Both the position numbers and the translations under genes were made by a program. A stretch of 64,000 nt of DNA from Nanobdellota archaeon (GTDB taxonomy: Archaea > Nanobdellota > Nanobdellia > SCGC-AAA011-G17 > JACPNG01): assembly GCA_038046345.1 (NCBI GenBank), contig JBBSWJ010000005.1, positions 24,784 through 88,783 of the forward strand, read 5' to 3'. The notes below the pieces were generated by a model. The model did no database searches, was not told the origin of the DNA, and saw only the letters and a list, made by a program, of their open reading frames with translations. Within the stretch, counting starts at the first letter, position 1; each line of letters starts with the position of its first letter. Shown here in pieces: positions 1,910 to 53,902 of the stretch.

Positions 1910-2689
1910 TTATCTTACCCCAAATAATCTTAAGATCTTACTAAAATAATCTGGTTTAATAGGCGCACGTTCATCTATGTATGGTGCACCGCATAATTCA
2001 GAAGCAAGTTTTTTATATGAGACCGACGCATCAGATGTAGGGTGGGTATAAATAACATTATCTCGTAGGGCAAGACTCTCTTTAATCTCTATTGACTCAG
2101 GTATAATTGCTATAACCTTATGTTCTAACAAAGCTTCAATGTTCTCAATTGGGATTTCATCATTAGAATTACGATATCTTGTAACAACCACACCAAGAAT
2201 TTTTTTACCCATGTCTTCAGCAACACGAATAGTTTTTAATGCATCAGCTATTGCAGGCATTTCAGGATTTGTAGTAATAATAATCTCATCACTTGCATCT
2301 ATGGCTAATAATGCTTCTTTACCAAGCCCTGCAGCGCAGTCAATAATAACAAAATCAGTAAGCCCCTTTAAGCCACGTATTACCTGCTTAAGCCTGTCAG
2401 GTTTTGTATTCTTCATGTCATCAAGAGATATACTTGCGGGAACTATTTTAGTACCAGTAGGATGTATATAGACGGCTTCAGAGATATGATTCTTACCTTG
2501 TAATACATGGTTTAAATTGATTGGAACAACCGGGCTGCCGAGATAAATCCCTACATTGGGGGTAGTAAGGTTTGCATCCACAACAGTTACATCTTTACCA
2601 AAAAAGTTCAAAGCACAACCAAGAGACACAGCAGTAGTAGTCTTTGCCACACCGCCTTTACCACCAGTAATAAGGATATAACGAGTCAT
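1910..2689 (-). CDS. MinD/ParA-family P-loop ATPase
   Basis: Carries the deviant Walker A GGKGGVAKTTT and a DCAAG Walker B-like segment. Confidence 0.8.
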   Translation of the reverse strand: MTRYILITGGKGGVAKTTTAVSLGCALNFFGKDVTVVDANLTTPNVGIYLGSPVVPINLNHVLQGKNHISEAVYIHPTGTKIVPASISLDDMKNTKPDRLKQVIRGLKGLTDFVIIDCAAGLGKEALLAIDASDEIIITTNPEMPAIADALKTIRVAEDMGKKILGVVVTRYRNSNDEIPIENIEALLEHKVIAIIPESIEIKESLALRDNVIYTHPTSDASVSYKKLASELCGAPYIDERAPIKPDYFSKILRLFGVR

Positions 2690-2723
2690 AACTATGAATT
2701 GCCCACCAAACTTTTAAATGTTT

Positions 2724-3200
2724 CTATGTATCTTCTTCCTTCCAGGCCATACCACCGTTCTTATCAATCCATTCACGAGAAAATTGGTAGAACTCTTTTG
2801 TTGAAACAAAATAAGACATCAGTTTCTCTTGATTGACTTCTACTTTTTCTGCGATTAGGGTAACATTTTTACGGTATTCTTCGCGGCCTTTGATTTTATT
2901 TTTCACAATCTTCCTCATTAATAAGTACAATTTAACCCACTCCTTGATTTTTTTATTGTTTTTAAATAATTTTTTTTCAATGATCTCAATTCTCTCAACA
3001 TGGCTTTGCGGGATTATATTTATCATTTTTTTTCTTTTAGCTATTTCTAAAATATCCAAAAAGATATAATCCATTGCTTCAATAAGACGTGATAGGGTAT
3101 TATTAATAACATCAATTGTACGAGTGTACTTTAATGTAACATAAATCAGATGGTCCACACGTTGTAATTGTCCTTTTGCTGTGTCACTGTCTTCTAACAT
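2724..3200 (-). CDS. hypothetical helical protein, paralog of 3184..3663
   Basis: Shares the N-terminal pattern LQ.xDHLxYVT and overall layout with the upstream neighbour. The two genes overlap by 17 nt. Confidence 0.6.
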   Translation of the reverse strand: MLEDSDTAKGQLQRVDHLIYVTLKYTRTIDVINNTLSRLIEAMDYIFLDILEIAKRKKMINIIPQSHVERIEIIEKKLFKNNKKIKEWVKLYLLMRKIVKNKIKGREEYRKNVTLIAEKVEVNQEKLMSYFVSTKEFYQFSREWIDKNGGMAWKEEDT

Positions 3201-3663
3201 CGATGAATACCTTGTTAACCTTGCTCATGAATATTTTAGCTTGGTTGATATACTTTTTAATTGTTTCGATGGATAGGGCATTTGCCTTGAATGAAACATT
3301 AAACATAATAAACTTATCATCGCGGGATAATTCGAATGGGCTATTCTTATGTTCTGCTAATACACATCGAAGTTCTTCAATCAGATTAATTTGTGAAACA
3401 TCAAACTTATAACGTGGGCCGGACTTAAGTCTAAACAGCTCAATACGTGTGTGTATATCCTTAGAATAAATCGGAATACGTTTGTACATGCGATCGTATC
3501 GTAAAATAGCGTCCATACCAGCTACTAAAGAGTCATAGATATTCTCCATTATGCCTATTAACAATTTATTTTCCTTAACCAAGTTGTAAGTAACATATGT
3601 TAAATGATCGGCAGTTTGGAGCTTTCTATTAGCTAATTCAAGGAGTGCTTTGATTTCTTCCAT
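3184..3663 (-). CDS. hypothetical helical protein, paralog of 2724..3200
   Basis: LQTADHLTYVTYNL here matches LQRVDHLIYVTLKY in the neighbour. The two form a tandem pair. Confidence 0.6.
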   Translation of the reverse strand: MEEIKALLELANRKLQTADHLTYVTYNLVKENKLLIGIMENIYDSLVAGMDAILRYDRMYKRIPIYSKDIHTRIELFRLKSGPRYKFDVSQINLIEELRCVLAEHKNSPFELSRDDKFIMFNVSFKANALSIETIKKYINQAKIFMSKVNKVFIDVRRQ

Positions 3664-3703
3664 TTGTTTATTAAATAATAAAGCTTAATAAGTATTATTG
3701 TAA

Positions 3704-4036
3704 TCAATTATTTTTTTGTAAGTATAGGATTGCTCCAGCAATATCCCCTTCTTTTTCTAAAGCTTCTTTGGCTTCTTCTTCAGAACAGTTAGTTTGATCC
3801 ATAATTGTATTTATATCTTCTTGTGAGAACAGCTCCCTATCATGAACTTCAATGTCTCCTATTATCTGGAATGTATCTTGCCCCATCATATTAACTTTTG
3901 TAACTTGCGGGTTTAAGATAACTATTTCTTTGTCAGAAGTTTTAATGATTACTTCTTTTGCATCAATTTCTTCTTGTTTAATGCCTAGCTTCTTCATTGC
4001 TTTTTGCATTTCTTTAGGATTTATTCCAGGAAACAT
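3704..4036 (-). CDS. nac: nascent polypeptide-associated complex protein (archaeal NAC)
   Basis: Has the NAC-domain beginning MFPGINPKEMQKAMKKLGIK and a C-terminal UBA-like EEEAKEALEKEGDIAGAILYL. Confidence 0.85.
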   Translation of the reverse strand: MFPGINPKEMQKAMKKLGIKQEEIDAKEVIIKTSDKEIVILNPQVTKVNMMGQDTFQIIGDIEVHDRELFSQEDINTIMDQTNCSEEEAKEALEKEGDIAGAILYLQKNN

Positions 4037-4057
4037 GCAAGTTAGAAAAATATCAAA

Positions 4058-4065
4058 TATATAAA
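4058..4065 (-). promoter_or_regulatory. TATA box (TTTATATA on the minus strand) of nac
   Basis: A consensus-like archaeal TATA box lies 21 nt upstream of ATG 4036. This spacing implies a leaderless or near-leaderless mRNA. Confidence 0.5.
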
Positions 4066-4179
4066 ATTTCGCATTTTATGATAAATTCCGGTATAAGCGT
4101 AGTTTTATTACGCTTAATACATGTTAATTGCAATTTGAGAGCCCAAGCAAAACGGGGTACCAGCAGTGCAATATCCACT

Positions 4180-5049
4180 TTATATTTGAAGGTTAAAAGG
4201 ATGTTCAATTTCCTTTATTCCAATGCAATAATCAGAGAGACCACAATACAAATTAGAATGTTCATCTATGCCCCCTGGAAAAATGATGTCGTCTAATTCA
4301 GGACTTCTTTTTGAAGGCGAATATGGGAAATCGGCTCTTCTTGCCAGAATTCTTAAATCTGAATAAACACTAGTTTTCGGATTAAATCTAAAAGAGACAG
4401 CATAATAATGCTTTTTCAAATCCACTTCAGTTGTTGTTTTATGAGCCTTATGTCCAATCACTCCAATTTCTTCATCTGATAGTTTTATCGCTTGATTTAC
4501 ACCTCCCCAAGAACCATCCTCAAACAAACCATTGATTATATTGACATTATACCAATCATTTTCTGTGAATCTTTGTAGCTCATCAATTCTACTAATTTCT
4601 AAGTATCCAATTTTACATAATCCGCTAATTTTTTCTTGCGGCCTTGTAAAAACTCCAATTCTATCTTCCAAATCAACTAAACGAATATCTTTCATCCCTA
4701 CAGGGCCAGATGCAAAAAATTCCAAATTCCTAATTGAGTCTCCCCTATAAATATCTTGATTCCATATAATACCGTTTTCACATTTCTCGACTCTTACACC
4801 CAAAATAAATATTTCACCTTTCACTTTAACATATGCAGGATCCTGTAATTGAAGTGGGGTTACTGTATCATCAATCTCCCATTCATTCTCATTTAATTTA
4901 TATGCAAAAAATATTCTGGAATCTAATTCGCTATCAAGAGATTCAATTCTAATCCCTATATAGGTTTTTCCACTATCACAAAAAGGAACTGTGGGATTAT
5001 AAGCAGTTTTTCCTTTTATGTTTCTGATTGGTACAATTTTGGATTTCAT
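4180..5049 (-). CDS. hypothetical protein, possibly a beta-propeller (DUF1861-like); function unknown
   Basis: Long ORF with coding-like composition. The family assignment is from memory only and is weak. Confidence 0.55.
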   Translation of the reverse strand: MKSKIVPIRNIKGKTAYNPTVPFCDSGKTYIGIRIESLDSELDSRIFFAYKLNENEWEIDDTVTPLQLQDPAYVKVKGEIFILGVRVEKCENGIIWNQDIYRGDSIRNLEFFASGPVGMKDIRLVDLEDRIGVFTRPQEKISGLCKIGYLEISRIDELQRFTENDWYNVNIINGLFEDGSWGGVNQAIKLSDEEIGVIGHKAHKTTTEVDLKKHYYAVSFRFNPKTSVYSDLRILARRADFPYSPSKRSPELDDIIFPGGIDEHSNLYCGLSDYCIGIKEIEHPFNLQI

Positions 5050-13646: not shown

Positions 13647-14051
13647 TTATTTACGTAAAATCTTATCCATTACTTTACCTTTTGCTATCTCATCAACAAG
13701 CTTATCCAGATACCTTACTTGTTGTGTTAACGGGTTTTTGATTTCTTCTATACGATATCCACATATTACTCCTGTAATGAGATGAGCATTCGGAGTTAAT
13801 TTTGCTTTCTGAAAGAATATTTTAAAAGTTACTTTTTTATCAATAAGATTTTGTAGTTTCTTTTCATCAAAACCAGTTAACCACTCAATTACTTGATGCA
13901 ACTCTTTCTTTGTTCTACCTTTCTTCTCCACTTTTGCTACATAGTGCGGATACACAGATGAAAATGTCATATTTGCAATACGCTCATCGTGTTCGGATGT
14001 TGTTTTCATAATTATTTTTCCTTTTTTAAATTTTTGAATTCGTGTTTCCAT
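13647..14051 (-). CDS. DUF2200-like protein
   Basis: MTFSSVYPHYVAKVEKKGRTKKELHQVIEWLTG resembles the DUF2200 family as I recall it. The true start may be ATG 14009. Confidence 0.55.
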   Translation of the reverse strand: METRIQKFKKGKIIMKTTSEHDERIANMTFSSVYPHYVAKVEKKGRTKKELHQVIEWLTGFDEKKLQNLIDKKVTFKIFFQKAKLTPNAHLITGVICGYRIEEIKNPLTQQVRYLDKLVDEIAKGKVMDKILRK

Positions 14052-14284
14052 AGTATAAGTTAAATTAGATTTTTATATAAAGTTTGCTAGGCACCAACTC
14101 AAATTGAATATAACTTAGGCGATTAAACAAATATTTATCTGCTTTATAGCATAATATTGCAAAAAAAGCAGTTACGCAAAGTTTTCAACTATTATAACCC
14201 GAATTTTTAATGAAAATTTTTTAAAAACTCTACATGTAATAATTTAAAACTAACTCTAAAAATAAATCAATCTAATAAAAAAAG

Positions 14285-14315
14285 TGATATCATGTATATT
14301 GTGTGTAAAATGGTC
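14285..14315 (-). other. 3' half of the 23S pre-rRNA processing stem
   Basis: The sequence tgatatcatgtatattgtgtgtaaaatggtc pairs with 17306..17342. The paired blocks are attgtgtgtaa/ttacacacaat (11 bp), tgatatc/gatatca and ggtc/gacc. Confidence 0.7.
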
Positions 14316-17305
14316 TCGAGCTATTGGAAAATGCAGGCTTAATTTCTCGTTGCCTTGAAACTTACACCCCACTCCCATCAAACAGATCTTCTATCTGTGC
14401 TCTCCTTCTCTTTTCAAGGTGGGTTTCGTCCTTAGATGCTTTCAGGACTTATCCCACAAGGCGTAGCTGCCCGGCCTGCCTTGTCAGACAACCGGTACAC
14501 CAGAGGCCTCGAATCCTCGTTCCTCTCGTACTAAAGGATCCTTCCCCTCAGAAGATAAACAAATCCAGTAGATATCATACAAACTGTCTCACAACGTTCT
14601 TAACCCAGCTCACGATCCCTTTTAATAAGTGAACACCTTCACCCTTGGCCGCAAGCAGTACGTGGAAACTGTTAATTTCGACATACCATGCTCTTTTCCG
14701 CGCATTTCTGCACGACCACTCTACGATACAAGAATCTAATCTTTGTATCCGGATAGGAAGAGCCGACATCGAGGTAGCAAGCAGCGCCGTCGATAAACTC
14801 GGAATCAATTTATTGATCCTTTGAGCTCTTAGGCGCTACAACTCAATTATGCCCGAGATAGCTTTTCTGTCATGTCTAGCCCCCATCAATGAGGACATAG
14901 AAGTTCGCTAGGCCATACTTTCGTACCTGAATCCCGTATTGTTTGGAATCCAGTCAAGCCAGCTTTTGCCCTTGCACTCCACAGAGAATTTCTAAATCTC
15001 TTGAGCTGACCTTTGGGCCCTACTGATATCCTTTCAGCAGGGTCCCGCCCCAGGCAAACTATCCGCCAGTAGTTGTCTTTCATTACTGAAGTAAGTAATA
15101 TAGAATACAGAGGGTAGTATCTCACTTTTGCCTAAACGTACACTGGCGTGCACGCATCAACAGCTCCTACCTATTCTTAACACCATACTCCATACCACAG
15201 CTACAAGCTATAGTAAAGTTCTACGGGGTCTTCGCTTCCCACTGGAATTCTCTGGCCTTTGCACCAGAATAGTGTGTTCGGGAGGTTCTACGTAAAGACA
15301 GTGGATACCTCGTTACGCCATTCATGCAAGTCGTCAATCAAACGACAAGGTATTACGCTACCTTAAGAGAATTATAGTTATTCCCGCCGTTTACACGCTC
15401 TTAGCCCCCTTGAAAAGGAGTTTAAAGTACATGCACTGGGCAGACGTCACCTCCTATACAAACCATTACTGGCTAGCAGGAAGTTTCGTTTTTGTTAAAC
15501 AGTCGGGCATCCTTAGTTATTGAATCCTGTACTCGCAACTAAAAGCTACAAGCGCAGGAACCCCTTATGCCGAAGTCACAGGGCCAATATTGCCGATTTC
15601 CTTTACGTAAATTACCCCTCTCATACCTTAGGCTACTAACCCAGGGCACCTGTGCTGGTTCTGGATACGGTTATTTATGATCCTTCCATATTGTTTTTTC
15701 ACGGGCTCAAGGCATCTACCCAATCAACATACATTGACTATTCTCAGCTTTTCTCAGGTTCTCATCATGACAATTCTCCCCTGACATATGCTAATTAACA
15801 ACCATGTCTATGATTGTGGGTATAGCCCAAAGCAGCAACAATAAGGCTTTCGTCGCCGAATGTACATAAATAGTACTGGAATATTAACCAGTTTGCCTCT
15901 TCCCGCACGTCAATTTATGAGTGCAGTTAGGTCCGACTAACTCTTAGCTGAACTGCAGTGCTAAGAAAACCTTGCCCTTTCGGTATTAGAGAGTCTCACT
16001 CTATATAGGTCCTACTACCACCGGGATTCTTATTCGTACACGGTCCATTTACTTTCACAAGTATACTTCCATCCATGCACGACACCTATCTACCACCTTG
16101 CTTTACAGCAAGTCTGAAGTATCGGTCGTCAGTTTAGCCCCGTTAATTTTCAGGGCATAATACCTTGACGGGTGAGCTATTACGCTTTCTTTAGAGGATG
16201 GCTGCTTCTAAGCCAACCTCCCCGCTGTCTCTGGTATTACACACCATTCACCCTTTCACACTTAACTGACAGTTAGGGACCTTAACTTCAGGCTGGGATG
16301 TTCCCCTTTTGGGACACACGCTTACCGCGCGCCCCTGCTTCCCGCCTTCTACGACGCATTGACATTTGGAGTTGAACAAGAGTGAGAGGAATTTCTTCCC
16401 TTAACATTCTAATCCGTAGCTCTACAACCAATGCTATCTCGAGCGAGACTATTCTGCGGCATATTTCGATAGGAACAGGCTATTAGCAAACTCGATTGGC
16501 TTTTCACCCCTAATCCCAAATCATAAGAGCACATGCACGTAGCACCTCTTCAGGCCTCCACCTCGTATCACCAAGGCTTCACCTTGCTCAGGATTAGATC
16601 GTCTGCTTTCCGGTCAGACCCCCATGACTTAAGGCGCTTTCACACCTCGCTCCTCGCAAGCTGCGAGCATTTGCTTTCGCTCAGCATTCGTACTAAAAGT
16701 ACTTACGCTCGCCATGAAGATCAACTCCCCGGCCCGTTATTCAAAACGTACGGTGCAACTCATGCTGCACCATTCTATAACCGTAAGGTTTCAGGAACTT
16801 TTCACACCCTATCAGAGGTACTTTTCAATGTTCCATCACTGTACTATTTGCTATCGGACTTAAAACATATTTAGCCTTAGAAGTTGATGCCTCCTAAATT
16901 CCTGCTCAATATCCAATGAACAGTACTATGGATACTTGTAAATCTTTCACGATTATCCTACGGGGCTATCACCCTGTGTCGCATACCATTCCAGATAACT
17001 TTAGATAAACATGTTAAGATGAAAAACAAGTCCAAACACCACATGTTGCTTCTTTTTCAAGAAGTAATTCGGTTTAGGCTATACGGATTTCGCTCGCTGT
17101 TACTCACCGCATCTCAATTGATTTCTTTTCCTGCGGGTACTAAGACGCTTCAGTTCCCCGCGTTATACATCCTCTCGGATTTAATAGGAAGTCCTATTCG
17201 GGAATCATTGGTTCGTAGGCTGCATGCGCCTCGCCAATGCATTTCGTAGCTTGCCACGCCCTTCATCTTTGTTTTTAAGCCGAATCATCCACCTTACGGC
17301 GTAAT
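14316..17305 (-). rRNA. 23S rRNA (ends approximate)
   Basis: Reverse-complement matches are seen to the sarcin-ricin loop AGUACGAGAGGAAC (near 14520), GAGCUGGGUU.AGAACGU.GUGAGACAGUU, CCUCGAUGUCGGCU, AAGACCCCGU and the 5' GGAUGAUUCGGC...GAAGGGCGUGGCAAGC. The gene is bounded by a long flanking inverted repeat. Confidence 0.9.
14795..14820 (-). other. 26-nt BHB-like insert (candidate mini-intron) in 23S helix 89
   Basis: RNA sense reads AAGA-GCUC-AAA-GGAUCAAUAAAUUGAUUCC-GAGU-UUA-UCGAC. The elements are a 4-bp helix GCUC:GAGU (one G.U), 3-nt bulges AAA and UUA, and an inner 7-bp hairpin. Removal gives GAGCUCAAAUCGACGG, against the canonical GAG(U/C)(U/C)CAUAUCGAC. Confidence 0.45.
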
Positions 17306-17342
17306 GACCTATAATTACACACAATACCTATACACGATATCA
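17306..17342 (-). other. 5' half of the 23S pre-rRNA processing stem
   Basis: Complement of 14285..14315. Confidence 0.7.
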
Positions 17343-17440
17343 TTAAATGAATATTTCATCTGTCCTAAGACTATGATATCCTTCACCCACAACAATTCAG
17401 TTTGTGAGTTGCACTATTTCATTAAAAAATGAATATGATA

Positions 17441-17548
17441 TGGACCCGTCGGGAAAATCGACGATCCAAGATGTCTAATGCAAATCGTTTTCGAACCCGA
17501 GGCCCCTACCTTGCAAGGGTAATGCTCTACCAGCTGAGCTACGGGCCC
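17441..17548 (-). tRNA. tRNA-Ala(UGC) with a 35-nt intron in the T-loop, located in the 16S-23S spacer
   Basis: RNA: GGGCCCG UA GCUC AGCUGGUA GAGC A UUACC CUUGCAA GGUAG GGGCC UCGGG UUCGAA[35 nt]U CCCGA CGGGUCC A. The G3:U70 alanine identity pair is present and the anticodon is UGC. Confidence 0.85.
17455..17489 (-). other. BHB intron of tRNA-Ala between T-loop positions 59 and 60
   Basis: The outer helix h is the T-stem UCGGG:CCCGA. The central helix H is UUCG:CGAU (3 bp plus U.U). The bulges are AAA and UUU. The inner helix h' is ACGAU(UU):(GG)AUCGU. Cutting after the 2nd bulge nt gives a 7-nt T-loop UUCGAAU. Confidence 0.75.
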
Positions 17549-17564
17549 AAACAATTGGATTGAC

Positions 17565-17599
17565 TGTACGAGATTAATTTCAGTGATTAGAATAGTAAA
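17565..17599 (-). other. 3' half of the 16S pre-rRNA processing stem
   Basis: tgtacgagat (17565-74) pairs with atctcgtaca (19205-14). gaatagtaaa (17590-99) pairs with tttactactc (19178-87), with one G.U at the RNA level. Confidence 0.65.
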
Positions 17600-17605
17600 A
17601 AAAAT

Positions 17606-19140
<1,535 letters not shown>

Positions 19141-19177
19141 TATTTTGGTCGCATAAAATTGGAAATTTTTGTAATAC

Positions 19178-19214
19178 TTTACTACTCATAACCATTGCTG
19201 CTTTATCTCGTACA
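19178..19214 (-). other. 5' half of the 16S pre-rRNA processing stem
   Basis: Complement of 17565..17599. Confidence 0.65.
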
Positions 19215-19329
19215 TCATACTTAATACTTCTGATTAAGTATTCACGTATTATATCACTAAAGTGATATTTTAAGAAGATTAAAAACTATGCTCAATCTTC
19301 ATTAAGTGAAACAAGTGTTGGCATCTAGC

Positions 19330-19337
19330 TTATAAAT
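19330..19337 (-). promoter_or_regulatory. candidate rRNA operon TATA box (ATTTATAA on the minus strand)
   Basis: This is the only strong TATA-like element upstream of the 16S leader, about 115 nt before the processing stem. Confidence 0.35.
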
Positions 19338-19448
19338 ATTTCTGTTCATGTGCTATAGCATGATAAACGAAAAATTAGTTTGGGCCTGACTTTCAATTTC
19401 GTATAACATACGAAGTCAGGTAAAAGATATTCGTATCCAAAACTGCTT

Positions 19449-43325: not shown

Positions 43326-43900
43326 GAGTAGTAATAGCTGGTGGGCCATATTGTGGTAAAACAACAGTAATAAATGAATTAAGCACACAGGGCTTTAGGA
43401 CAATAAACGAAGCAACAACGGAGATTATTAAAAAGGAACAAGAAGCAGGTAATAACGAACCATGGTTAGAAAGAGAAAAATTTCAGAAAAAAATCATGGA
43501 TCTTCAAATTCAACAGTTTAATTCAGCAAAAAATAATGTAATTACTTTTTATGATCGGGGTTTAGTTGATGGATTAGCATACTATCATTTAGATGGCATT
43601 GACCCACCAAAAGAACTAACAGAACATGCCTCAAAAAAAAGGTATAATCTTGTTTTCATTCCGGATCTTATTGAAGGATTCAAACCTGACAAAACTCGTG
43701 GTGAATCACTTGAAGAACGTAAGCTAGTTCATGAGCTTATCAGAAAATGTTATTCTGATCATGGTTATAATGTAATTAATATACCAAGCATAAGCGTTTC
43801 TGAACGTGTATTGTTTATTAAAAAGAAGATTAGCGAGCATAAACTACTTTTAAAAGATAATATACGCCGAGAGCAGGATTTGAACCTGCATATCCGTTAG
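43310..43900 (+). CDS. AAA_28-type P-loop ATPase/kinase-like protein
   Basis: Has VVIAGGPYCGKTT Walker A and FYDRGLVDGLAY. The start is set at MDNQIRV (ATG 43310). The 3' end overlaps the antisense tRNA-Ser. Confidence 0.7.
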   Translation: MDNQIRVVIAGGPYCGKTTVINELSTQGFRTINEATTEIIKKEQEAGNNEPWLEREKFQKKIMDLQIQQFNSAKNNVITFYDRGLVDGLAYYHLDGIDPPKELTEHASKKRYNLVFIPDLIEGFKPDKTRGESLEERKLVHELIRKCYSDHGYNVINIPSISVSERVLFIKKKISEHKLLLKDNIRREQDLNLHIR

Positions 43901-43960
43901 GAAACAAGCTTACTGGTATAATTTCCAGGCTTGCGCAATACCAAGTTATGCGATCTCGGC
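43865..43960 (-). tRNA. tRNA-Ser(GGA) with a 12-nt canonical intron
   Basis: The acceptor is GCCGAGA/UCUCGGC with discriminator G. The anticodon stem is CAAGC/GCUUG and the loop is CU-GGA-A[AUUAUACCAGUA]A. It has a long variable arm (UCC-UAAC-GGA) and T-arm GCAGG-UUCAAAU-CCUGC. Confidence 0.85.
43911..43922 (-). other. canonical (37/38) BHB intron of tRNA-Ser
   Basis: The central helix is CUGG:CCAG and the bulges are AAA and UAA. Confidence 0.75.
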
Positions 43961-48694: not shown

Positions 48695-51049
48695 TTAATC
48701 CCGTCTTTTAACATAGAAGTAACCTACTATAATTAAAACAATAACAATTATTGTTACAATCCACATAATCCTTCCAAATCCTTTCTCACTAATCTTTTCT
48801 TCAATATCTCCGCTAACAGTAGGAATTTCTTCACTTGGTGCTGATTCTTCTTCGGCTACAACCTCAAGATCTTTTAGTTTTAAAACAGTAATTGTTGCAA
48901 CCCCGTTAGTAATGCTTTCTAAAGTTACCTGTGCATTAGGTGTTCCGTCTCCGTCCATATCAACATCCTTTGTTTCTCCAACACTTAATGTTACTTCAGC
49001 TTTGTAACTTTCAATAGTAAAAGTTAAAGTATTCTCATTTACTTTAACAAAAGTGATAGTATGCGCATCAGTGCCACTTAAACTAAATACCTTAATACTG
49101 CCTTGCGATCCAACAAAAGTGGTCTTATCACTTGTACTCAGGTCTGCGTCTAATACTAGTTCCTCACCAGATCTGCTAATACCGCTCCCGCCGCCCGAGC
49201 TTGATGCATCTCCGCCGCCAGTGCTAGTGAAAACAATAAACGTTATTATACCAGTGCTAGTTGTAGTGTGCACAACTTGATCTTTTGTTGTGCATTCAAC
49301 ATTATAAGTACCTGCTTCATTAGTATCAGTATTCTTAAATTCTTGATCACTGCAAGTTTCGCTGGTTTTAGTAATAGTGCTACCACCTGGTTTAGTTATC
49401 TTAATACTACAAGTGTTCATACCACTTACACTATCAGTTCCAGAGCAGCCATATTTTATGCTGCTGAATGGATTGATATTCTTGTCTGCTGGTTCTGTAA
49501 GCGCAACAGTAGGCACCCCTCCGTCAAGAACAAAACTGCCTCTGTAATATTTTGGCCATTGAGCTACTGCAGTTGAATTTATCTTAATAATAAAATTAGT
49601 ATAATTTCCATCGCTGCTATCATTTGCTACACCTTTGCCAATAGTACCGTTATATAGCGTGATATTAGTTGCTCCATAAGCACCTGTAGTTATGTTTGTT
49701 AGGTTTAAGTAACCATTCGCAGCAACCCCATTATTTTCCTCTGTTCCAAAATCTGCAGTAGTATTAAATGTAAAATAACCATAAGCATTTTTATTTCTTG
49801 TATTTGCTGCAACAGCAATTACCCCGCCACTGCCTTCGATTGTAAAGGTTAGCAATGAATTTGCCTGTAAGTACCCTACACCACTCCTTCCAGACCCTAG
49901 TTGGTTTTTATCAAAATCCAATACATTTCCTGCTTCATCAGTTATGTTTAAAGCAGTTATATTAGGCTGACCGTCAAGCCCTATAAACATAAATGGATTA
50001 TCTGTTAAGAAATTATTATCTGATGTGTCATTAATTGTAATGCTATTACCAACTGTATCATACGCTCTTATCACGAATGTTGTTGCATTCCCTTTAGTAT
50101 CCCCCTTATCATTTCCATCAGATCCAGTTCCAACACAGTCTAAATCAATAACCCCTTCGTATGTTCTATTACCAGATTGTGTATCGCTTGTTGTCATTGA
50201 AACATTTCCATACTGCCCTGTAGAAGCAGTTTCTGTAGTTGATGCAGTAGCATTGCTGCTGTTGCATACATAATAAAGGTCTACTGTATCAAAATGGGTA
50301 TCTTGAAGATCAACTTTTACTGTTGTATTTTCTATTGGCATATAAGCCCCATCATTATAAGATCCGGTTTGGAACAAAAGTGATGCCTGGCCAGTCCCAT
50401 TTGCGCGGCTAAAATTCCCTCCAACTAAACCATCAGAGATATTTATAGACATTATTTGTGGGTAGTAAGTGTCTATATAAGTGTACATAAGTGTTGAGTT
50501 TGTTGCTGATGTGCTATCAGCCATATAAATAGTTACATTCCAGTCCTGTCTGCGGCTATGTCCAATACCATCCACTTTATCTGCTGTAAGGTTTACACTG
50601 AATATATAATGACCTGGTAATGTTCCATTATCTGTATTATTCCACCAAATATTACTTAACGTCCCGTCCGTGCTGTTACCAAAGTTCCAGCTTCCTGAAC
50701 CATTTGTTGCATTTGCATGTCCATCAACACCAACAGAACCGATACCATTTGATCTATTAAAATCAAGTCCTGAAGGTTGAAAAGTAAAATTACTAGGAAT
50801 TGTTATATTAACCACTGAAAAATTTGCAGAATCTGCGCTATTAAAAATAATAGAAAAATTAAATCTTACATTTGTGTTGTTCCTTTGAACTATCCCCGAA
50901 AATGCCGTTGTTGTTGCTACTGTGTCGCTTATACTTAAATTTGATCCTGTATTTGCAGTGGTATCAAGATCTGCAATAGTAACACTAAAATGGAATAATC
51001 CAAACAGTAACAGTACAATCATCAATTTAATTTTTGTATTCAATAACAT
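48695..51049 (-). CDS. large surface (S-layer-like) protein, sequon-rich, with C-terminal TM anchor
   Basis: Has a signal peptide, dozens of N-x-S/T sequons, a Gly/Ser linker, and a C-terminal TM IMWIVTIIVIVLIIVGYFY followed by KRRD. Confidence 0.75.
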   Translation of the reverse strand: MLLNTKIKLMIVLLLFGLFHFSVTIADLDTTANTGSNLSISDTVATTTAFSGIVQRNNTNVRFNFSIIFNSADSANFSVVNITIPSNFTFQPSGLDFNRSNGIGSVGVDGHANATNGSGSWNFGNSTDGTLSNIWWNNTDNGTLPGHYIFSVNLTADKVDGIGHSRRQDWNVTIYMADSTSATNSTLMYTYIDTYYPQIMSINISDGLVGGNFSRANGTGQASLLFQTGSYNDGAYMPIENTTVKVDLQDTHFDTVDLYYVCNSSNATASTTETASTGQYGNVSMTTSDTQSGNRTYEGVIDLDCVGTGSDGNDKGDTKGNATTFVIRAYDTVGNSITINDTSDNNFLTDNPFMFIGLDGQPNITALNITDEAGNVLDFDKNQLGSGRSGVGYLQANSLLTFTIEGSGGVIAVAANTRNKNAYGYFTFNTTADFGTEENNGVAANGYLNLTNITTGAYGATNITLYNGTIGKGVANDSSDGNYTNFIIKINSTAVAQWPKYYRGSFVLDGGVPTVALTEPADKNINPFSSIKYGCSGTDSVSGMNTCSIKITKPGGSTITKTSETCSDQEFKNTDTNEAGTYNVECTTKDQVVHTTTSTGIITFIVFTSTGGGDASSSGGGSGISRSGEELVLDADLSTSDKTTFVGSQGSIKVFSLSGTDAHTITFVKVNENTLTFTIESYKAEVTLSVGETKDVDMDGDGTPNAQVTLESITNGVATITVLKLKDLEVVAEEESAPSEEIPTVSGDIEEKISEKGFGRIMWIVTIIVIVLIIVGYFYVKRRD

Positions 51050-51115: not shown

Positions 51116-53902
51116 TTATAATTCTTTTATACCCTTTCTATCTTTTATTTGTTTTCTTATTTTATCTTGCAATGATTCAGGCAGCTTCTCATACATTTGG
51201 TCTACCACAAAATAGCTACCCCGGCCACCAGTAGCGGATCTTAAGTCGCTGCTTAATCCAAACATTTCACCAACAGGTAGCTTGCATTTAACGGTCATTT
51301 GTACTCCCTCTTGTTGCACTTCTAACAATTGCCCTCTTTTATTTTGTATTAATTTAGATACATCTCCTAAATAATCACTAGGCGCTCCAATATGTAATTC
51401 CTGTACTGGCTCATAAATATATGGTTTTCCTGTTAGTATAGCCTCTCTTATCCCCTCTCTTACAGCGGGGTATACCTGGGCTGGCCCACGATGTATTGCA
51501 TCTTCATGTAATTTCATATCAGTAACTCTTACTTTCATCTTCATTGTTGGTTCTTTTGCAAGTATTCCAGCATCGCAAACCTGTTCAAAACCATCTATTA
51601 CTAATTCTATTACTTCACCTATCTGAACTATACCACGAGTGTCATCAACTAATAAGTTTCCCTTGTATATATCCCTATATTTCTTCGCGTCTTTTAAGAT
51701 AACTCCTTTCTCTTCTAATTTTTTAAATGTATCAACATCCTTTTTTTTAAGCCTGCCATCAGGTATTTCTCCGTCCCTCATTAATTGATAAATCTCATCT
51801 TCTAAAGGTTCAACAATAAAAAAGAATTTATTATGTTTATTTGGGGATTTTCCTTCTTTTTCTTCAGATACCTTGGTTACCGCTTCTCTGTACACAACAA
51901 TAGGCGGGCTTGTCCTTACTTGCAAACCTTTTTCTGTTTTTATCCTATTCTCAATAACTTCTAAATGTAGTTCGCCCATTCCAGAAATTAAGTTTTCTCC
52001 TGTCTCCTCATTAATTTCGATTGTTATTGTTGGATCCTCTTTGTTTACTTGCTTTAGTACTTCAACAAGTTTTGGCAAGTCAGCAGGAGATGTTGCTTCA
52101 ATACTTTTTGTAACAACCGGGTCAAATATATGTTTTATTGCTTCAAACGGTTCCATTTCTTCAGATGCAATTGTCTCTCCAGCAAACACATTTTTTAACC
52201 CCACTAAACCTACAATATTACCAGCAACTGCTTTTTCAACGGTTACTCTTTGAGCTCCTTTGTATATCGATACCTGTTGTATTCTAATCTTTCTTTTTGC
52301 ATTGATCATATATGCATCATCGCCCTGTCTTACAGTTCCAGAGAATAATCTACCAGCCGTTACTTCTCCTGCATGTTTATCAATAACAATTTTTGTTGCT
52401 ACAAAAGCAGTCGGACCATTAGGATTACAGTTTACTAATGACTTTCCAATTTCAGAATCTAAATCTCCATGCCATATTTTTGGCACTCTGTATTTCTGAG
52501 CGTCTACAGGGTTTTTATGGTGTGCTATTACCATCTCGAGGACAACTTCATGCAATGGCGCTTTTTTTGCTATACCCTTCCATTCATCATTTTCATATGC
52601 TTTTATAACATCTTTAAAGCTCAGCCCATTTCTTAGCATATAAGGAGCAGATAACGCCCAATTATGAAATGCAGATCCAAATGCTACACTCCCATCTTTA
52701 ACATGAACTAACCATTTTTCTTTAAATTCTTCTGGGGCTACACTCTGTATGAACTTGTTTATCTCAGTTATTATTTTCACAAATCTTTCTTGCATTGCTT
52801 CAGGTGTTAGTTTTACTTCTTTTATTAAACGATCAACTTTGTTTATGAATAATACTGGCTTGACTCTTTCTCTTAACGCTTGACGCAACACGGTTTCTGT
52901 TTGAGGCATTATACCTTCTACTGCATCACATAATACTATTGCCCCGTCTACAGCTCTCATCGCTCTTGTTACATCTCCTCCAAAGTCTACATGCCCGGGC
53001 GTGTCAATTAGATTTATTAGAAAATCTTTTCCATTAATTACGTGAACCATAGATACATTTGCTGAATCAATTGTGATCCCGCGTTCTTGTTCATCTGCGT
53101 GGAAATCCAAAGCTAATTGTTTTCCAGCTAACTCTTGTGACATCATCCCGGCTCCTGCCAATAAATTATCTGAGAATGTTGTATTATGGATCACCATTCC
53201 CTCAGCAACAAAATTATGATTGTCTGCAACTGTAAAATCGTATACCATATCTTTCTGTGTTATCTCTTTTGAATTAACCTCACAGTACATAATATCTTCA
53301 CTTAATATTTTATTCTCTTGGATTAATATTTGTCCATTATTCTCTATTTTTTCTTTATAACCACTTAATGAGATTGATATTGCATCTTTTTGGTGCGGCC
53401 AACTTTTCATGCAAACTACAAGATCCTTCAATTCTAATTCTCTTGCTTCTTTATAACAAAAGTCACGTGCGAGCCTATCCAAAACTAAATAACGATGTTC
53501 TGGTGTTGTTTCAATTGAGCTGCCATTTTTTAATTTTATTTTTATTAGTTCACCGCCAGTTAATTTCCAAGCAAGGCTGATTAGTTTCTTTTCTATTTTC
53601 CCTGAATCTTTATTTAATGATAATACCTTAACACATTGGCTTGTAACATCATAAACAACATGACCATTCTTTTTTTCAAATAGTTTTCCATTTTTTATGA
53701 TCTTATCAAATAGCTTCTCTGCCTGTATAACTGAGCTATCACCTAAAATAATTCTAGACTCACCAGAAATACATTTCCCATGATATCGTTCTATGAAGGG
53801 TTAACTCGATAGAAAATCGATATGGGCGCATATAGCTATATTTCTGATTTGTTCCGGTTCATTCATTAATTTAACAACTTTTTCTGCTATCTTATCCGCC
53901 AT
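51116..53902 (-). CDS. fusA: translation elongation factor aEF-2, interrupted by a 33-nt BHB intron and a 197-aa mini-intein
   Basis: Exon 1 (53902..53816) encodes MADKIAEKVVKLMNEPEQIRNIAICAHID. Exon 2 (53782..51116) starts HGK, continues through the intein, then TTFSDNLLAGAG...DTPGHVDF...NKVDRL...HEDAIHRGPAQ. The lengths are 87 and 2667 nt and both are in frame. The predicted mature protein is about 720 aa. Confidence 0.85.
53183..53773 (-). mobile_element. mini-intein (197 aa) inserted after the P-loop GK of aEF-2
   Basis: Starts CISGESRIILGD (block A). It has ETTPEHRY (block B, TxxH) and ends VAEGMVIHN, followed by the +1 Thr of the extein (TTFSDN). Confidence 0.8.
53783..53815 (-). other. 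33-nt BHB intron within the aEF-2 coding sequence (contains an in-frame TAA)
   Basis: RNA 53826->53777: CCCAU-AUCG-AUU-UUCUAU-CGAGUUAACCCUUC-AUAGAA-CGAU-AUC-AUGGG. All three helices are perfectly Watson-Crick, with two 3-nt bulges separated by 4 bp. Excision restores AHID|HGK. Confidence 0.75.

What the first reader, a model, noticed from the sequence alone, without database searches (positions are those of the whole stretch)
17441..17548. Spacer tRNA-Ala(UGC) carries a 35-nt intron at a non-canonical T-loop position (59/60)
The 16S-23S spacer tRNA has all alanine features: a G3:U70 pair, a UGC anticodon and a normal D-arm and anticodon arm. However, its T-stem halves UCGGG and CCCGA are 42 nt apart.

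A BHB can be drawn with the T-stem as the outer helix.
- central helix H: UUCG:CGAU (3 bp plus U.U)
- bulges: AAA and UUU
- inner helix: ACGAUUU:GGAUCGU

Cutting after the second bulge nucleotide removes 17455..17489 and leaves a perfect 7-nt T-loop UUCGAAU. As far as I know, non-canonical tRNA intron positions have been described mainly in Thermoproteales-type Crenarchaeota. Here one sits in the tRNA embedded in the rRNA operon of an AT-rich, DPANN-like genome. Standard tRNA finders restricted to 37/38 introns would miss this tRNA.
Basis: partly seen in the sequence, partly recalled or inferred. Interest (0 to 1): 0.6.

Follow-up and report, generated by a model that had tools for sequence, protein, structure and literature searches.

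The report
T-loop intron in rRNA-spacer tRNA-Ala
The alanine tRNA gene between the 16S and 23S rRNA genes of this small groundwater archaeon is interrupted in its T-loop by a 35-base intron of the ordinary archaeal type; this kind of intron is already known, but it turns out to be shared by the same tRNA in more than 100 distantly related environmental archaea.

Summary
On the minus strand, 17548..17441 is a 108-nt tRNA-Ala(UGC) precursor lying between 16S and 23S. Its T-stem halves (UCGGG/CCCGA) are 42 nt apart. Removing 17489..17455 (35 nt) gives a 73-nt sequence that ARAGORN calls a perfect tRNA-Ala(tgc). The unspliced gene is missed by ARAGORN and only partly matched by the Rfam tRNA model.

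The flanks draw a near-canonical bulge-helix-bulge (BHB) motif with cuts at 59/60. It gave about 100 distinct spacer tRNA-Ala(UGC) genes with a 15-45 nt insertion at the same place. Their 16S genes are only 70-83% identical to the window's. Insert sequences are free, but the T-stem and central helix covary, A59 and U60 are fixed, and the adjoining intron bases vary.

Carriers include Nanoarchaeota/Woesearchaeota (the window), Aenigmarchaeota and Thermoplasmata. A 59/60 intron has already been described in Crenarchaeota and in the DPANN archaeon ARMAN-2. This is therefore a new member of a known kind. The new element is its wide conservation in the spacer tRNA.

Splicing itself was not shown. 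In passing, the window's EF-2 gene appears to carry a perfect 33-nt BHB intron in its P-loop codons.

The parts
17441..17548 (-). tRNA-Ala(UGC) precursor gene, 108 nt. It starts 57 nt after the 16S 3' end and ends 124 nt before 23S.
   Evidence: Sequence read. Rfam places 16S at 17606-19140 and 23S at 14304-17316, both on the minus strand.
17490..17548 (-). 5' exon, tRNA positions 1-59: acceptor 5' strand with G3, D arm, anticodon arm with UGC, variable loop, T-stem 5' strand UCGGG (17496-17500), and T-loop U54-A59.
   Evidence: The Rfam tRNA model aligns 17492-17548 at 36.1 bits.
17455..17489 (-). Predicted 35-nt BHB intron, AACGAUUUGCAUUAGACAUCUUGGAUCGUCGAUUU. Its parts are: third base of the 5' bulge (17489); inner helix ACGAUUU (17482-17488) paired with GGAUCGU (17461-17467); 14-nt loop (17468-17481); central-helix 3' strand CGAU (17457-17460); first two bases of the 3' bulge (17455-17456).
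   Evidence: Removing it gives a sequence ARAGORN calls tRNA-Ala(tgc). Boundaries are supported by invariant A59 and U60 next to variable intron bases in 101 homologues.
17492..17495 (-). Central BHB helix, 5' strand (U54 U55 C56 G57). It pairs with CGAU at 17457-17460, giving U.U, U-A, C-G and G-C.
   Evidence: Across homologues, position 57 covaries with its partner (A-U 30, G-C 18, G-U 2, unpaired 16 of 66 distinct constructs).
17441..17454 (-). 3' exon, tRNA positions 60-73: U60, T-stem 3' strand CCCGA (17449-17453), acceptor 3' strand CGGGUCC with U70, and A73. No CCA is encoded.
17606..19140 (-). 16S rRNA gene (context).
   Evidence: Rfam SSU_rRNA_archaea, 1342 bits.
14304..17316 (-). 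23S rRNA gene (context).
   Evidence: Rfam LSU_rRNA_archaea, 2405 bits.

Best explanation
The 16S-23S spacer of this DPANN (Nanoarchaeota/Woesearchaeota-like) archaeon encodes a functional tRNA-Ala(UGC). The gene is interrupted between nucleotides 59 and 60 of the T-loop by a 35-nt intron of the archaeal bulge-helix-bulge (BHB) type.

In the precursor, the T-stem is the outer helix. U54-G57 pair with the last CGAU of the intron to form the 4-bp central helix. A58-A59-A and U-U-U60 are the two 3-nt bulges. A 7-bp intron hairpin is the inner helix.

Inferred steps, not shown here: the tRNA splicing endonuclease EndA cuts after the second base of each bulge. An RtcB-type ligase joins A59 to U60, giving the T-loop UUCGAAU and a 73-nt tRNA. 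The intron is released and probably circularised.

The intron is one copy of an old or repeatedly kept feature of the rRNA-spacer tRNA-Ala in many archaeal lineages.
For: - In-silico splicing gives a perfect tRNA-Ala(tgc) cloverleaf with G3:U70 and A73.
- The BHB has the same strand topology and cut rule as the canonical 37/38 intron of the window's tRNA-Ser(GGA). There the rule correctly restores a 7-nt anticodon loop and a class II tRNA.
Of the 122 sequences analysed (these loci plus the window and L070), 114 have a perfect 5-bp T-stem split by 22-52 nt. Of the 95 whose acceptor stem my script could also pair, 88 have the 16S 3' end within 400 nt upstream.
- Rfam confirms the 16S-tRNA-23S order in five carrier loci.
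- ARAGORN calls tRNA-Ala(tgc) in 93 of 105 in-silico spliced homologues.
- In 102 distinct inserts the central helix has 4/4 pairs in 73 and 3/4 in 26.
- The T-stem occurs in 11 variants, all compensated. Position 57 and its partner run A-T 42, G-C 32, A-C 0. A59 is present in 100/101 and U60 in 101/101, while the flanking intron bases vary.
- On an anchored alignment, 96.1% of cells are paired against 86.9% in shuffles (0/500 reach it), and at most 64.5% with slid partners.
- Carriers' 16S genes are 70-83% identical to the window's, so many independent lineages keep the arrangement.
- From the literature: 59/60 is a listed non-canonical BHB position (PMC4090602). A 59/60 intron of ARMAN-2 tRNA-Cys was used as a substrate in cleavage assays (PMC5829648).
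Against: - No RNA data: cleavage, ligation and the mature tRNA are inferred.
- No EndA or RtcB gene was found among about 50 window ORFs scanned with Pfam. This is weak evidence against, because the window is probably only a small part of the genome.
- The central helix here has a U.U mismatch.
- The BHB is 0.4 kcal/mol above the MFE, and the fold is not more stable than shuffles.
- The BHB motif alone is common by chance in this AT-rich DNA.
- The comparative set was gathered with a pattern that fixed UUGC, GGGUUCRA and CCC....GGUCCA, and I then kept only hits with a fully paired T-stem. Those features are therefore partly selected for.
- An intron-less tRNA-Ala(UGC) elsewhere in the genome cannot be excluded.
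Confidence: 0.88

Rival explanations
1. The locus is a decayed or non-decoding tRNA-like element. The insertion is never removed, and the structure serves at most as an RNase P / RNase Z processing signal that separates 16S from 23S.
For: ARAGORN does not find the unspliced gene. The Rfam model only matches by skipping the T arm. No splicing enzymes were found in the window. A second tRNA-Ala(UGC) gene could not be searched for.
Against: All tRNA-Ala identity and architecture features are intact. In about 100 diverged homologues the split T-stem stays perfectly complementary through compensatory changes. A59 and U60 stay fixed, and a BHB is kept around a freely changing insert. That pattern is what selection for excision and for a working T arm predicts. 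A processing signal alone would not need the anticodon loop, G3:U70 or a restorable 7-nt T-loop.
Confidence: 0.05
2. It is a real intron, but the cuts are not at 59/60. The A-run and U-run at the boundaries allow other registers, for example 58/59 or 60/61.
For: The junction sequence is degenerate (A58 A59 A A ... U U U U60). A subfamily of carriers (L070, L146, L171, L206, L230) has four bases, not three, between the central helix and the T-stem. The geometry is therefore not rigid in every lineage.
Against: Only the 59/60 register follows the rule of cutting after the second bulge base on both sides, and it gives UUCGAAU. Across 101 homologues the base before the cut is A in 100 and the base after the cut is U in all, while the neighbouring intron bases vary freely. 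That places the exon borders exactly there.
Confidence: 0.05
3. The insertion is an assembly or chimera artefact of a metagenome contig.
For: rRNA operons are hard to assemble. The other contigs of this organism that were found start or end just outside the 23S end of the operon and do not cover the spacer tRNA.
Against: Analogous insertions at the same position occur in more than 100 independent contigs from many projects and in a GTDB representative Woesearchaeota MAG. The insert forms a specific motif.
Confidence: 0.01

Closest known systems
59/60 intron of ARMAN-2 (Candidatus Micrarchaeum acidiphilum) pre-tRNA-Cys(GCA). Described by Fujishima et al. 2011 (PMC3239211) and used as a mini-helix substrate in Kaneta et al. 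2018 (PMC5829648).
   Same: Same insertion point (T-loop 59/60), same kind of intron (EndA substrate), and a DPANN host.
   Different: A different tRNA (Cys, not the rRNA-spacer Ala). The ARMAN-2 motif is a relaxed hBH, whereas the window's is a nearly full hBHBh'. ARMAN-2 uses an epsilon2 EndA. The EndA type of this genome is unknown.
Non-canonical BHB introns of Crenarchaeota, especially Thermoproteales. Positions include 59/60 (Marck and Grosjean 2003 and Sugahara et al. 2008, as cited in PMC4090602).
   Same: A position-independent BHB intron: the T-stem serves as outer helix, and the intron sequence is free outside the motif.
   Different: Here the host is a mesophilic, AT-rich DPANN archaeon, and the intron sits in the tRNA embedded in the rRNA operon. 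No sign was seen of the intron-sequence sharing between different tRNAs that is reported for Thermoproteales. The only other tRNA in the window has an unrelated 12-nt intron.
Canonical 37/38 archaeal tRNA intron, for example the window's own tRNA-Ser(GGA) at 43865-43960.
   Same: Same geometry: a 5-bp stem, then 4 loop bases pairing with the 3' end of the intron, with cuts after loop base 6 and before loop base 7. Position 59/60 in the T arm is the structural equivalent of 37/38 in the anticodon arm.
   Different: It is in the T arm instead of the anticodon arm, so finders that allow only anticodon-loop introns miss it.
Intron-less spacer tRNA-Ala of euryarchaeal 16S-tRNA-23S operons (PMC8997704).
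   Same: Same operon layout and the same tRNA identity.
   Different: The textbook spacer tRNA-Ala is described without an intron. Here, and in more than 100 environmental operons, it carries one in the T-loop, and in some cases a second insertion in the D loop.

Membership tests
Archaeal BHB (EndA-dependent) tRNA intron | Two 3-nt bulges on opposite strands, separated by a 4-bp helix. | tested here: met
   Bulges are AAA and UUU. The helix is UUCG/CGAU, with 3 pairs plus U.U. Among 102 distinct homologous inserts the helix has 4/4 pairs in 73 and 3/4 in 26, and the 3' bulge is 3 nt in 89.
Archaeal BHB (EndA-dependent) tRNA intron | Flanking outer and inner helices (full hBHBh' form). | tested here: met
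   The outer helix is the T-stem UCGGG/CCCGA (5 bp). The inner helix is ACGAUUU/GGAUCGU (7 bp). Both are part of the MFE structure.
Archaeal BHB (EndA-dependent) tRNA intron | Cutting after the second base of each bulge restores a canonical tRNA. | tested here: met
   The 73-nt product is called tRNA-Ala(tgc) with the 7-nt T-loop UUCGAAU. The same rule works for 93/105 homologues.
Archaeal BHB (EndA-dependent) tRNA intron | The motif is conserved by covariation while the intron sequence and length drift. | tested here: met
   Inserts are 15-45 nt with unrelated sequences. 96.1% of cells are paired against 86.9% in shuffles (0/500). Three pairs show changes on both sides.
Archaeal BHB (EndA-dependent) tRNA intron | EndA and an RNA ligase (RtcB) are encoded by the organism. 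| tested here: inconclusive
   Neither was found among about 50 ORFs of the 64-kb window. The rest of the genome is not available. DPANN lineages are reported to carry alpha4-type EndA with an L3 loop (PMC5829648).
Archaeal BHB (EndA-dependent) tRNA intron | Experimental cleavage and ligation, and a mature spliced tRNA. | not testable with these tools
   No RNA data or enzyme assay is available.
tRNA-Ala | G3:U70 wobble pair in the acceptor stem, discriminator A73, and an alanine anticodon. | tested here: met
   G3:U70, A73 and UGC are read directly from the sequence.
Self-splicing group I / group II intron in a tRNA gene | A catalytic core of several hundred nucleotides. | tested here: not met
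   The insert is 35 nt. No Rfam intron family matches the region, even at E <= 10.

The most novel reading that the evidence does not exclude
The 59/60 intron of the rRNA-spacer tRNA-Ala(UGC) may be an ancient, vertically kept feature shared by several DPANN phyla and Thermoplasmata, and kept because it does something. One possibility is that it ties release of the spacer tRNA, and so separation of pre-16S from pre-23S, to the same EndA activity that processes archaeal pre-rRNA. It could do this by masking the T-loop/D-loop elbow that RNase P and RNase Z recognise until the intron is removed. My evidence shows wide conservation of position and motif. It shows nothing about function or ancestry, and repeated gain at a structurally favoured site is not excluded.
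Probability: 0.15. Interest if true: 0.6.

Novelty: new member of a known kind. Interest (0 to 1): 0.4.

Why it matters
There are three practical consequences and one conceptual one.

- **Missed gene.** This tRNA, possibly the genome's only tRNA-Ala(UGC) gene (a second copy could not be looked for), is invisible to ARAGORN and only half-seen by the Rfam tRNA model. MAG tRNA complements and completeness estimates for DPANN and some Thermoplasmata will undercount unless a finder aware of non-canonical introns is used.
- **Biased spacer analyses.** Spacer-based analyses of archaeal rRNA operons will misjudge the spacer if the intron is ignored.
- **A large natural data set.** About 100 diverged copies of one intron at one site show what EndA needs: the outer helix, the 4-bp helix, 3-nt bulges, and fixed A59 and U60.
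- **EndA has many substrates in this group.** In the same window, EndA substrates appear to include a T-loop intron, an anticodon-loop intron and possibly an mRNA intron. This fits reports that DPANN lineages have many disrupted tRNA genes.

Tried and rejected
- **Wasted genome scan.** Only L070 (a Woesearchaeota MAG) was a true hit, and L007 (Desulfurococcaceae) was a normal tRNA. I therefore could not survey GTDB genomes, estimate how many DPANN spacers lack the intron, or look for a second tRNA-Ala in this MAG.
- **BHB motif scan.** A naive BHB scan of the window gave about 610 hits, and its shuffle control timed out. The motif alone is useless as a detector here.
- **rRNA processing stems.** I looked for BHB motifs in the 16S and 23S processing stems to show EndA acting on the same transcript. 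The 16S flanks form a 10-bp helix (UGUACGAGAU/AUCUCGUACA) followed by an irregular internal loop, with no canonical BHB. For 23S there is only a weak candidate. This is unresolved.
- **Splicing enzymes.** Pfam scans of about 50 window ORFs found no EndA or RtcB.
- **Literature.** Searches found no paper describing this particular spacer-tRNA intron. The supplement of PMC5829648, which may list DPANN intron positions, is not held.
- **Other intron types and guide RNAs.** A group I/II intron was rejected by size and by the lack of any Rfam hit. By eye, the intron sequence has no C box (RUGAUGA) or D box (CUGA), so it is not a C/D-box guide RNA.

Full report
**What is at the locus**

Rfam places an archaeal 16S gene at 17606-19140 and a 23S gene at 14304-17316, both on the minus strand. 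The finding lies between them. Read on the minus strand, 17548..17441 is:

GGGCCCG UA GCUC AGCUGGUA GAGC A UUACC CUUGCAA GGUAG GGGCC UCGGG [42 nt] CCCGA CGGGUCC A

The two T-stem halves are 42 nt apart instead of 7.

ARAGORN finds no tRNA here, with or without its intron option. The Rfam tRNA model reaches 36.1 bits only by deleting the T arm and using part of it as a false acceptor strand. Deleting 17455..17489 (35 nt) gives a 73-nt sequence that ARAGORN calls tRNA-Ala(tgc), with a perfect cloverleaf and the T-loop UUCGAAU.

**The motif**

The T arm plus insert reads:

UCGGG-UUCG-AAA-ACGAUUU-(14 nt)-GGAUCGU-CGAU-UUU-CCCGA

- Outer helix: the T-stem.
- Central helix: UUCG/CGAU (U.U, U-A, C-G, G-C).
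- Bulges: two 3-nt bulges, AAA and UUU.
- Inner helix: 7 bp.

The MFE structure contains the T-stem and the inner helix. Adding the central helix costs only 0.4 kcal/mol.

I checked the strand topology against a canonical case in the same window. The tRNA at 43865-43960 reads CAAGC-CUGG-AAA-UUAUA-CCAG-UAA-GCUUG. Cutting after the second base of each bulge removes 12 nt at 37/38 and yields a class II tRNA-Ser(GGA). The T-loop insert has the same layout, so 59/60 is the T-arm equivalent of 37/38.

The motif alone proves little. A naive scan finds about 610 BHB-like sites in this 34%-GC window, and the fold is no more stable than shuffles (z = -0.8).

**Comparative evidence**

My first collection scan was badly designed and mostly returned bacterial tRNAs. 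It did yield one true relative, L070, a 'Candidatus Woesearchaeota archaeon' MAG. There a tRNA-Ala(UGC) between 16S and 23S has a 32-nt insert at the same place.

A tighter pattern (UUGC, 14 N, GGGUUCRA, 17-47 N, CCCNNNNGGUCCA) matched only L070 among the 123 loci held at that point.

- Of the 122 sequences analysed (the 120 metagenome loci plus the window and L070), 114 have a perfectly complementary 5-bp T-stem split by 22-52 nt.
- Of the 95 whose acceptor stem my script could also pair, 88 have the 16S 3' end within 400 nt upstream. The eight sequences that failed the T-stem test are tandem tRNAs or chance matches.
- Rfam confirms the 16S-tRNA-23S order in L070, L233, L170, L124 and L221. 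It again gives only truncated tRNA hits there.
- After in-silico removal of the insert, ARAGORN calls tRNA-Ala(tgc) in 93 of 105 sequences. Most of the rest carry an additional insertion in the D loop.

**What is conserved and what is not**

The 102 distinct inserts are 15-45 nt long and unrelated in sequence.

- The central helix has 4/4 pairs in 73 and 3/4 in 26.
- The T-stem occurs in 11 sequence variants, all compensated.
- Position 57 is A with partner U in 42 cases and G with partner C in 32. It is never A with C.
- A59 is present in 100 of 101 and U60 in 101 of 101. The first intron base (A 62, U 25, C 7, G 6) and the last two intron bases vary. This places the exon borders exactly at 59|60, as the rule of cutting after the second bulge base predicts.
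- On an anchored alignment of 66 distinct constructs, 96.1% of cells pair against 86.9% in shuffles (0 of 500 reach it). With slid partners the figure is at most 64.5%. The covariation score is 0.326 against 0.145.

Two caveats apply. The pattern fixed several bases, and I kept only hits with a fully paired T-stem, so the T-stem figure is partly a selection effect. The central-helix, A59 and U60 results are not affected by this.

**Who carries it**

- The window's ThrRS is 100% identical to an NCBI protein labelled 'Nanoarchaeota archaeon'. Its next relatives (60-64% identity) are labelled Woesearchaeota or Nanoarchaeia.
- Contigs carrying an identical window protein come from Hainich groundwater (well H51, 0.1 um filter fraction).
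- Carriers' 16S genes are only 70-83% identical to the window's.
- L170 (T-stem GUGGG/CCCAC group) encodes a ProRS 77-79% identical to Aenigmarchaeota proteins.
- L233 (AUGGG/CCCAU group, 21-nt insert) encodes an SRP54 95% identical to a Thermoplasmata MAG protein.

The feature therefore spans at least two DPANN phyla and reaches outside DPANN.

**Mechanism**

What is shown: the gene architecture, the restorable cloverleaf, and the conserved and covarying BHB.

What is inferred from established knowledge of archaeal tRNA splicing: EndA recognises the BHB wherever it sits and cuts in both bulges, and an RtcB-type ligase joins the exons. The released intron is probably circularised.

No EndA or RtcB gene is present in the roughly 50 window ORFs scanned. 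That is unsurprising for a window that is probably only a small part of the genome. The literature reports alpha4-type EndAs with an extra L3 loop in diverse DPANN lineages, together with many disrupted tRNA genes (PMC5829648).

**Comparison with what is known**

- 59/60 is listed among the known non-canonical intron positions (PMC4090602).

So both the kind of element and its occurrence in DPANN are already described. I found no paper noting that the rRNA-spacer tRNA-Ala carries this intron, or that it is so widely conserved. The library is incomplete, however, and tRNAscan-SE 2.0 may well annotate these genes routinely.

**Verdict**

This is a new member of a known kind, of moderate interest.

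The rivals are unlikely. A non-spliced tRNA-like element is hard to reconcile with the covariation pattern. A different cut register is hard to reconcile with the fixed A59 and U60. An assembly artefact is excluded by more than 100 independent contigs.

**Side observation**

The aEF-2 gene (minus strand, 53902..51116) contains a 33-nt insert at 53815..53783, with an in-frame stop, inside the P-loop codons (AHID | insert | HGK). The surrounding RNA forms a perfect hBHBh':

- outer helix CCCAU/AUGGG
- central helix AUCG/CGAU
- bulges AU|U and AU|C
- inner helix UUCUAU/AUAGAA

Cutting by the same rule removes exactly the 33 nt and restores AHIDHGK. A mini-intein of about 190 aa follows directly after HGK. 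The mRNA BHB introns I found described in the literature are those of the crenarchaeal cbf5 gene (PMC2738675). This candidate deserves its own follow-up.

Noticed in passing
window 53783-53815 (minus strand), within the aEF-2 gene 51116-53902: A 33-nt insert with an in-frame TAA splits the P-loop codons (AHID | insert | HGK). The RNA forms a perfect hBHBh': CCCAU/AUGGG, AUCG/CGAU, bulges AUU and AUC, UUCUAU/AUAGAA. Cutting after the second bulge base removes exactly 33 nt and restores AHIDHGK. This is a candidate BHB intron in a protein-coding gene of a DPANN archaeon. The mRNA BHB introns I found in the literature are those of crenarchaeal cbf5 (PMC2738675)..
   Followed up: partly
window about 53200-53780 (minus strand), inside aEF-2: Directly after HGK there is a mini-intein of about 190 aa (CISGES...VIHN|TTFSDNLLAGAGMM; weak Pfam Intein_splicing hit). 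The EF-2 P-loop region is thus interrupted twice within 9 nt, once at RNA level and once at protein level.
   Followed up: partly
window 43865-43960 (minus strand): The second tRNA is tRNA-Ser(GGA), with a 12-nt intron at 37/38 (CUGGAA|AUUAUACCAGUA|A). Its 5' bulge merges into the terminal loop, giving a short bulge-helix-loop form. ARAGORN places the intron one base off and mis-calls it tRNA-Thr(ggt).
   Followed up: yes
L233 9950-10037 (also L140, L174, L208, L240): The same 59/60 insert (21-22 nt, inner helix GCUGG/CCAGC) sits in the spacer tRNA-Ala of a 16S-tRNA-23S-5S operon. A neighbouring SRP54 gene is 95% identical to a Thermoplasmata MAG protein, so the feature is not confined to DPANN.
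   Followed up: partly
L131, L148, L151, L156, L165/L180, L190, L195, L235, L239 (upstream half of their spacer tRNA-Ala): These carriers have a second insertion of about 16-35 nt in the D loop in addition to the T-loop insert, for example L156: GCUC AGUGGUA [CUUUGCGUGAGCUGUUGCUUAUGUGGAGCACAAA] AGAGC. I did not analyse them for BHB geometry.
   Followed up: no
L070, L146, L171, L206, L230 (T-arm of spacer tRNA-Ala): A subfamily has CGAA followed by four bases (GAGU or UAGU) before the T-stem. That is a 4-nt 3' bulge, or else an 8-nt T-loop if the standard cut rule applies. The exact cut site there is unclear.
   Followed up: partly
window 19141-19400 with 17549-17605, and 17317-17440 with 14050-14303: The 16S flanks pair (10-bp helix UGUACGAGAU/AUCUCGUACA, then an irregular loop and further helices), but I found no canonical BHB in the 16S processing stem and only a weak candidate for 23S.
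   Followed up: partly
L170 4513-5367 and 7778-12965: In this Aenigmarchaeota-like locus the 23S match spans 5.2 kb, which implies large insertions. A LAGLIDADG ORF lies just upstream of, and slightly overlapping, the 16S match.
   Followed up: no
window 48695-51049 (minus strand): A 784-aa ORF with no Pfam match lies between the EF-2 and EF-1alpha genes, in what is otherwise a translation-factor cluster.
   Followed up: no
window 2506-4532: With its intron option on, ARAGORN reports a 'tRNA-Ser(act)' with a 1936-nt intron. The span covers protein-coding ORFs (a NAC-domain gene and others) and is a false positive.
   Followed up: partly
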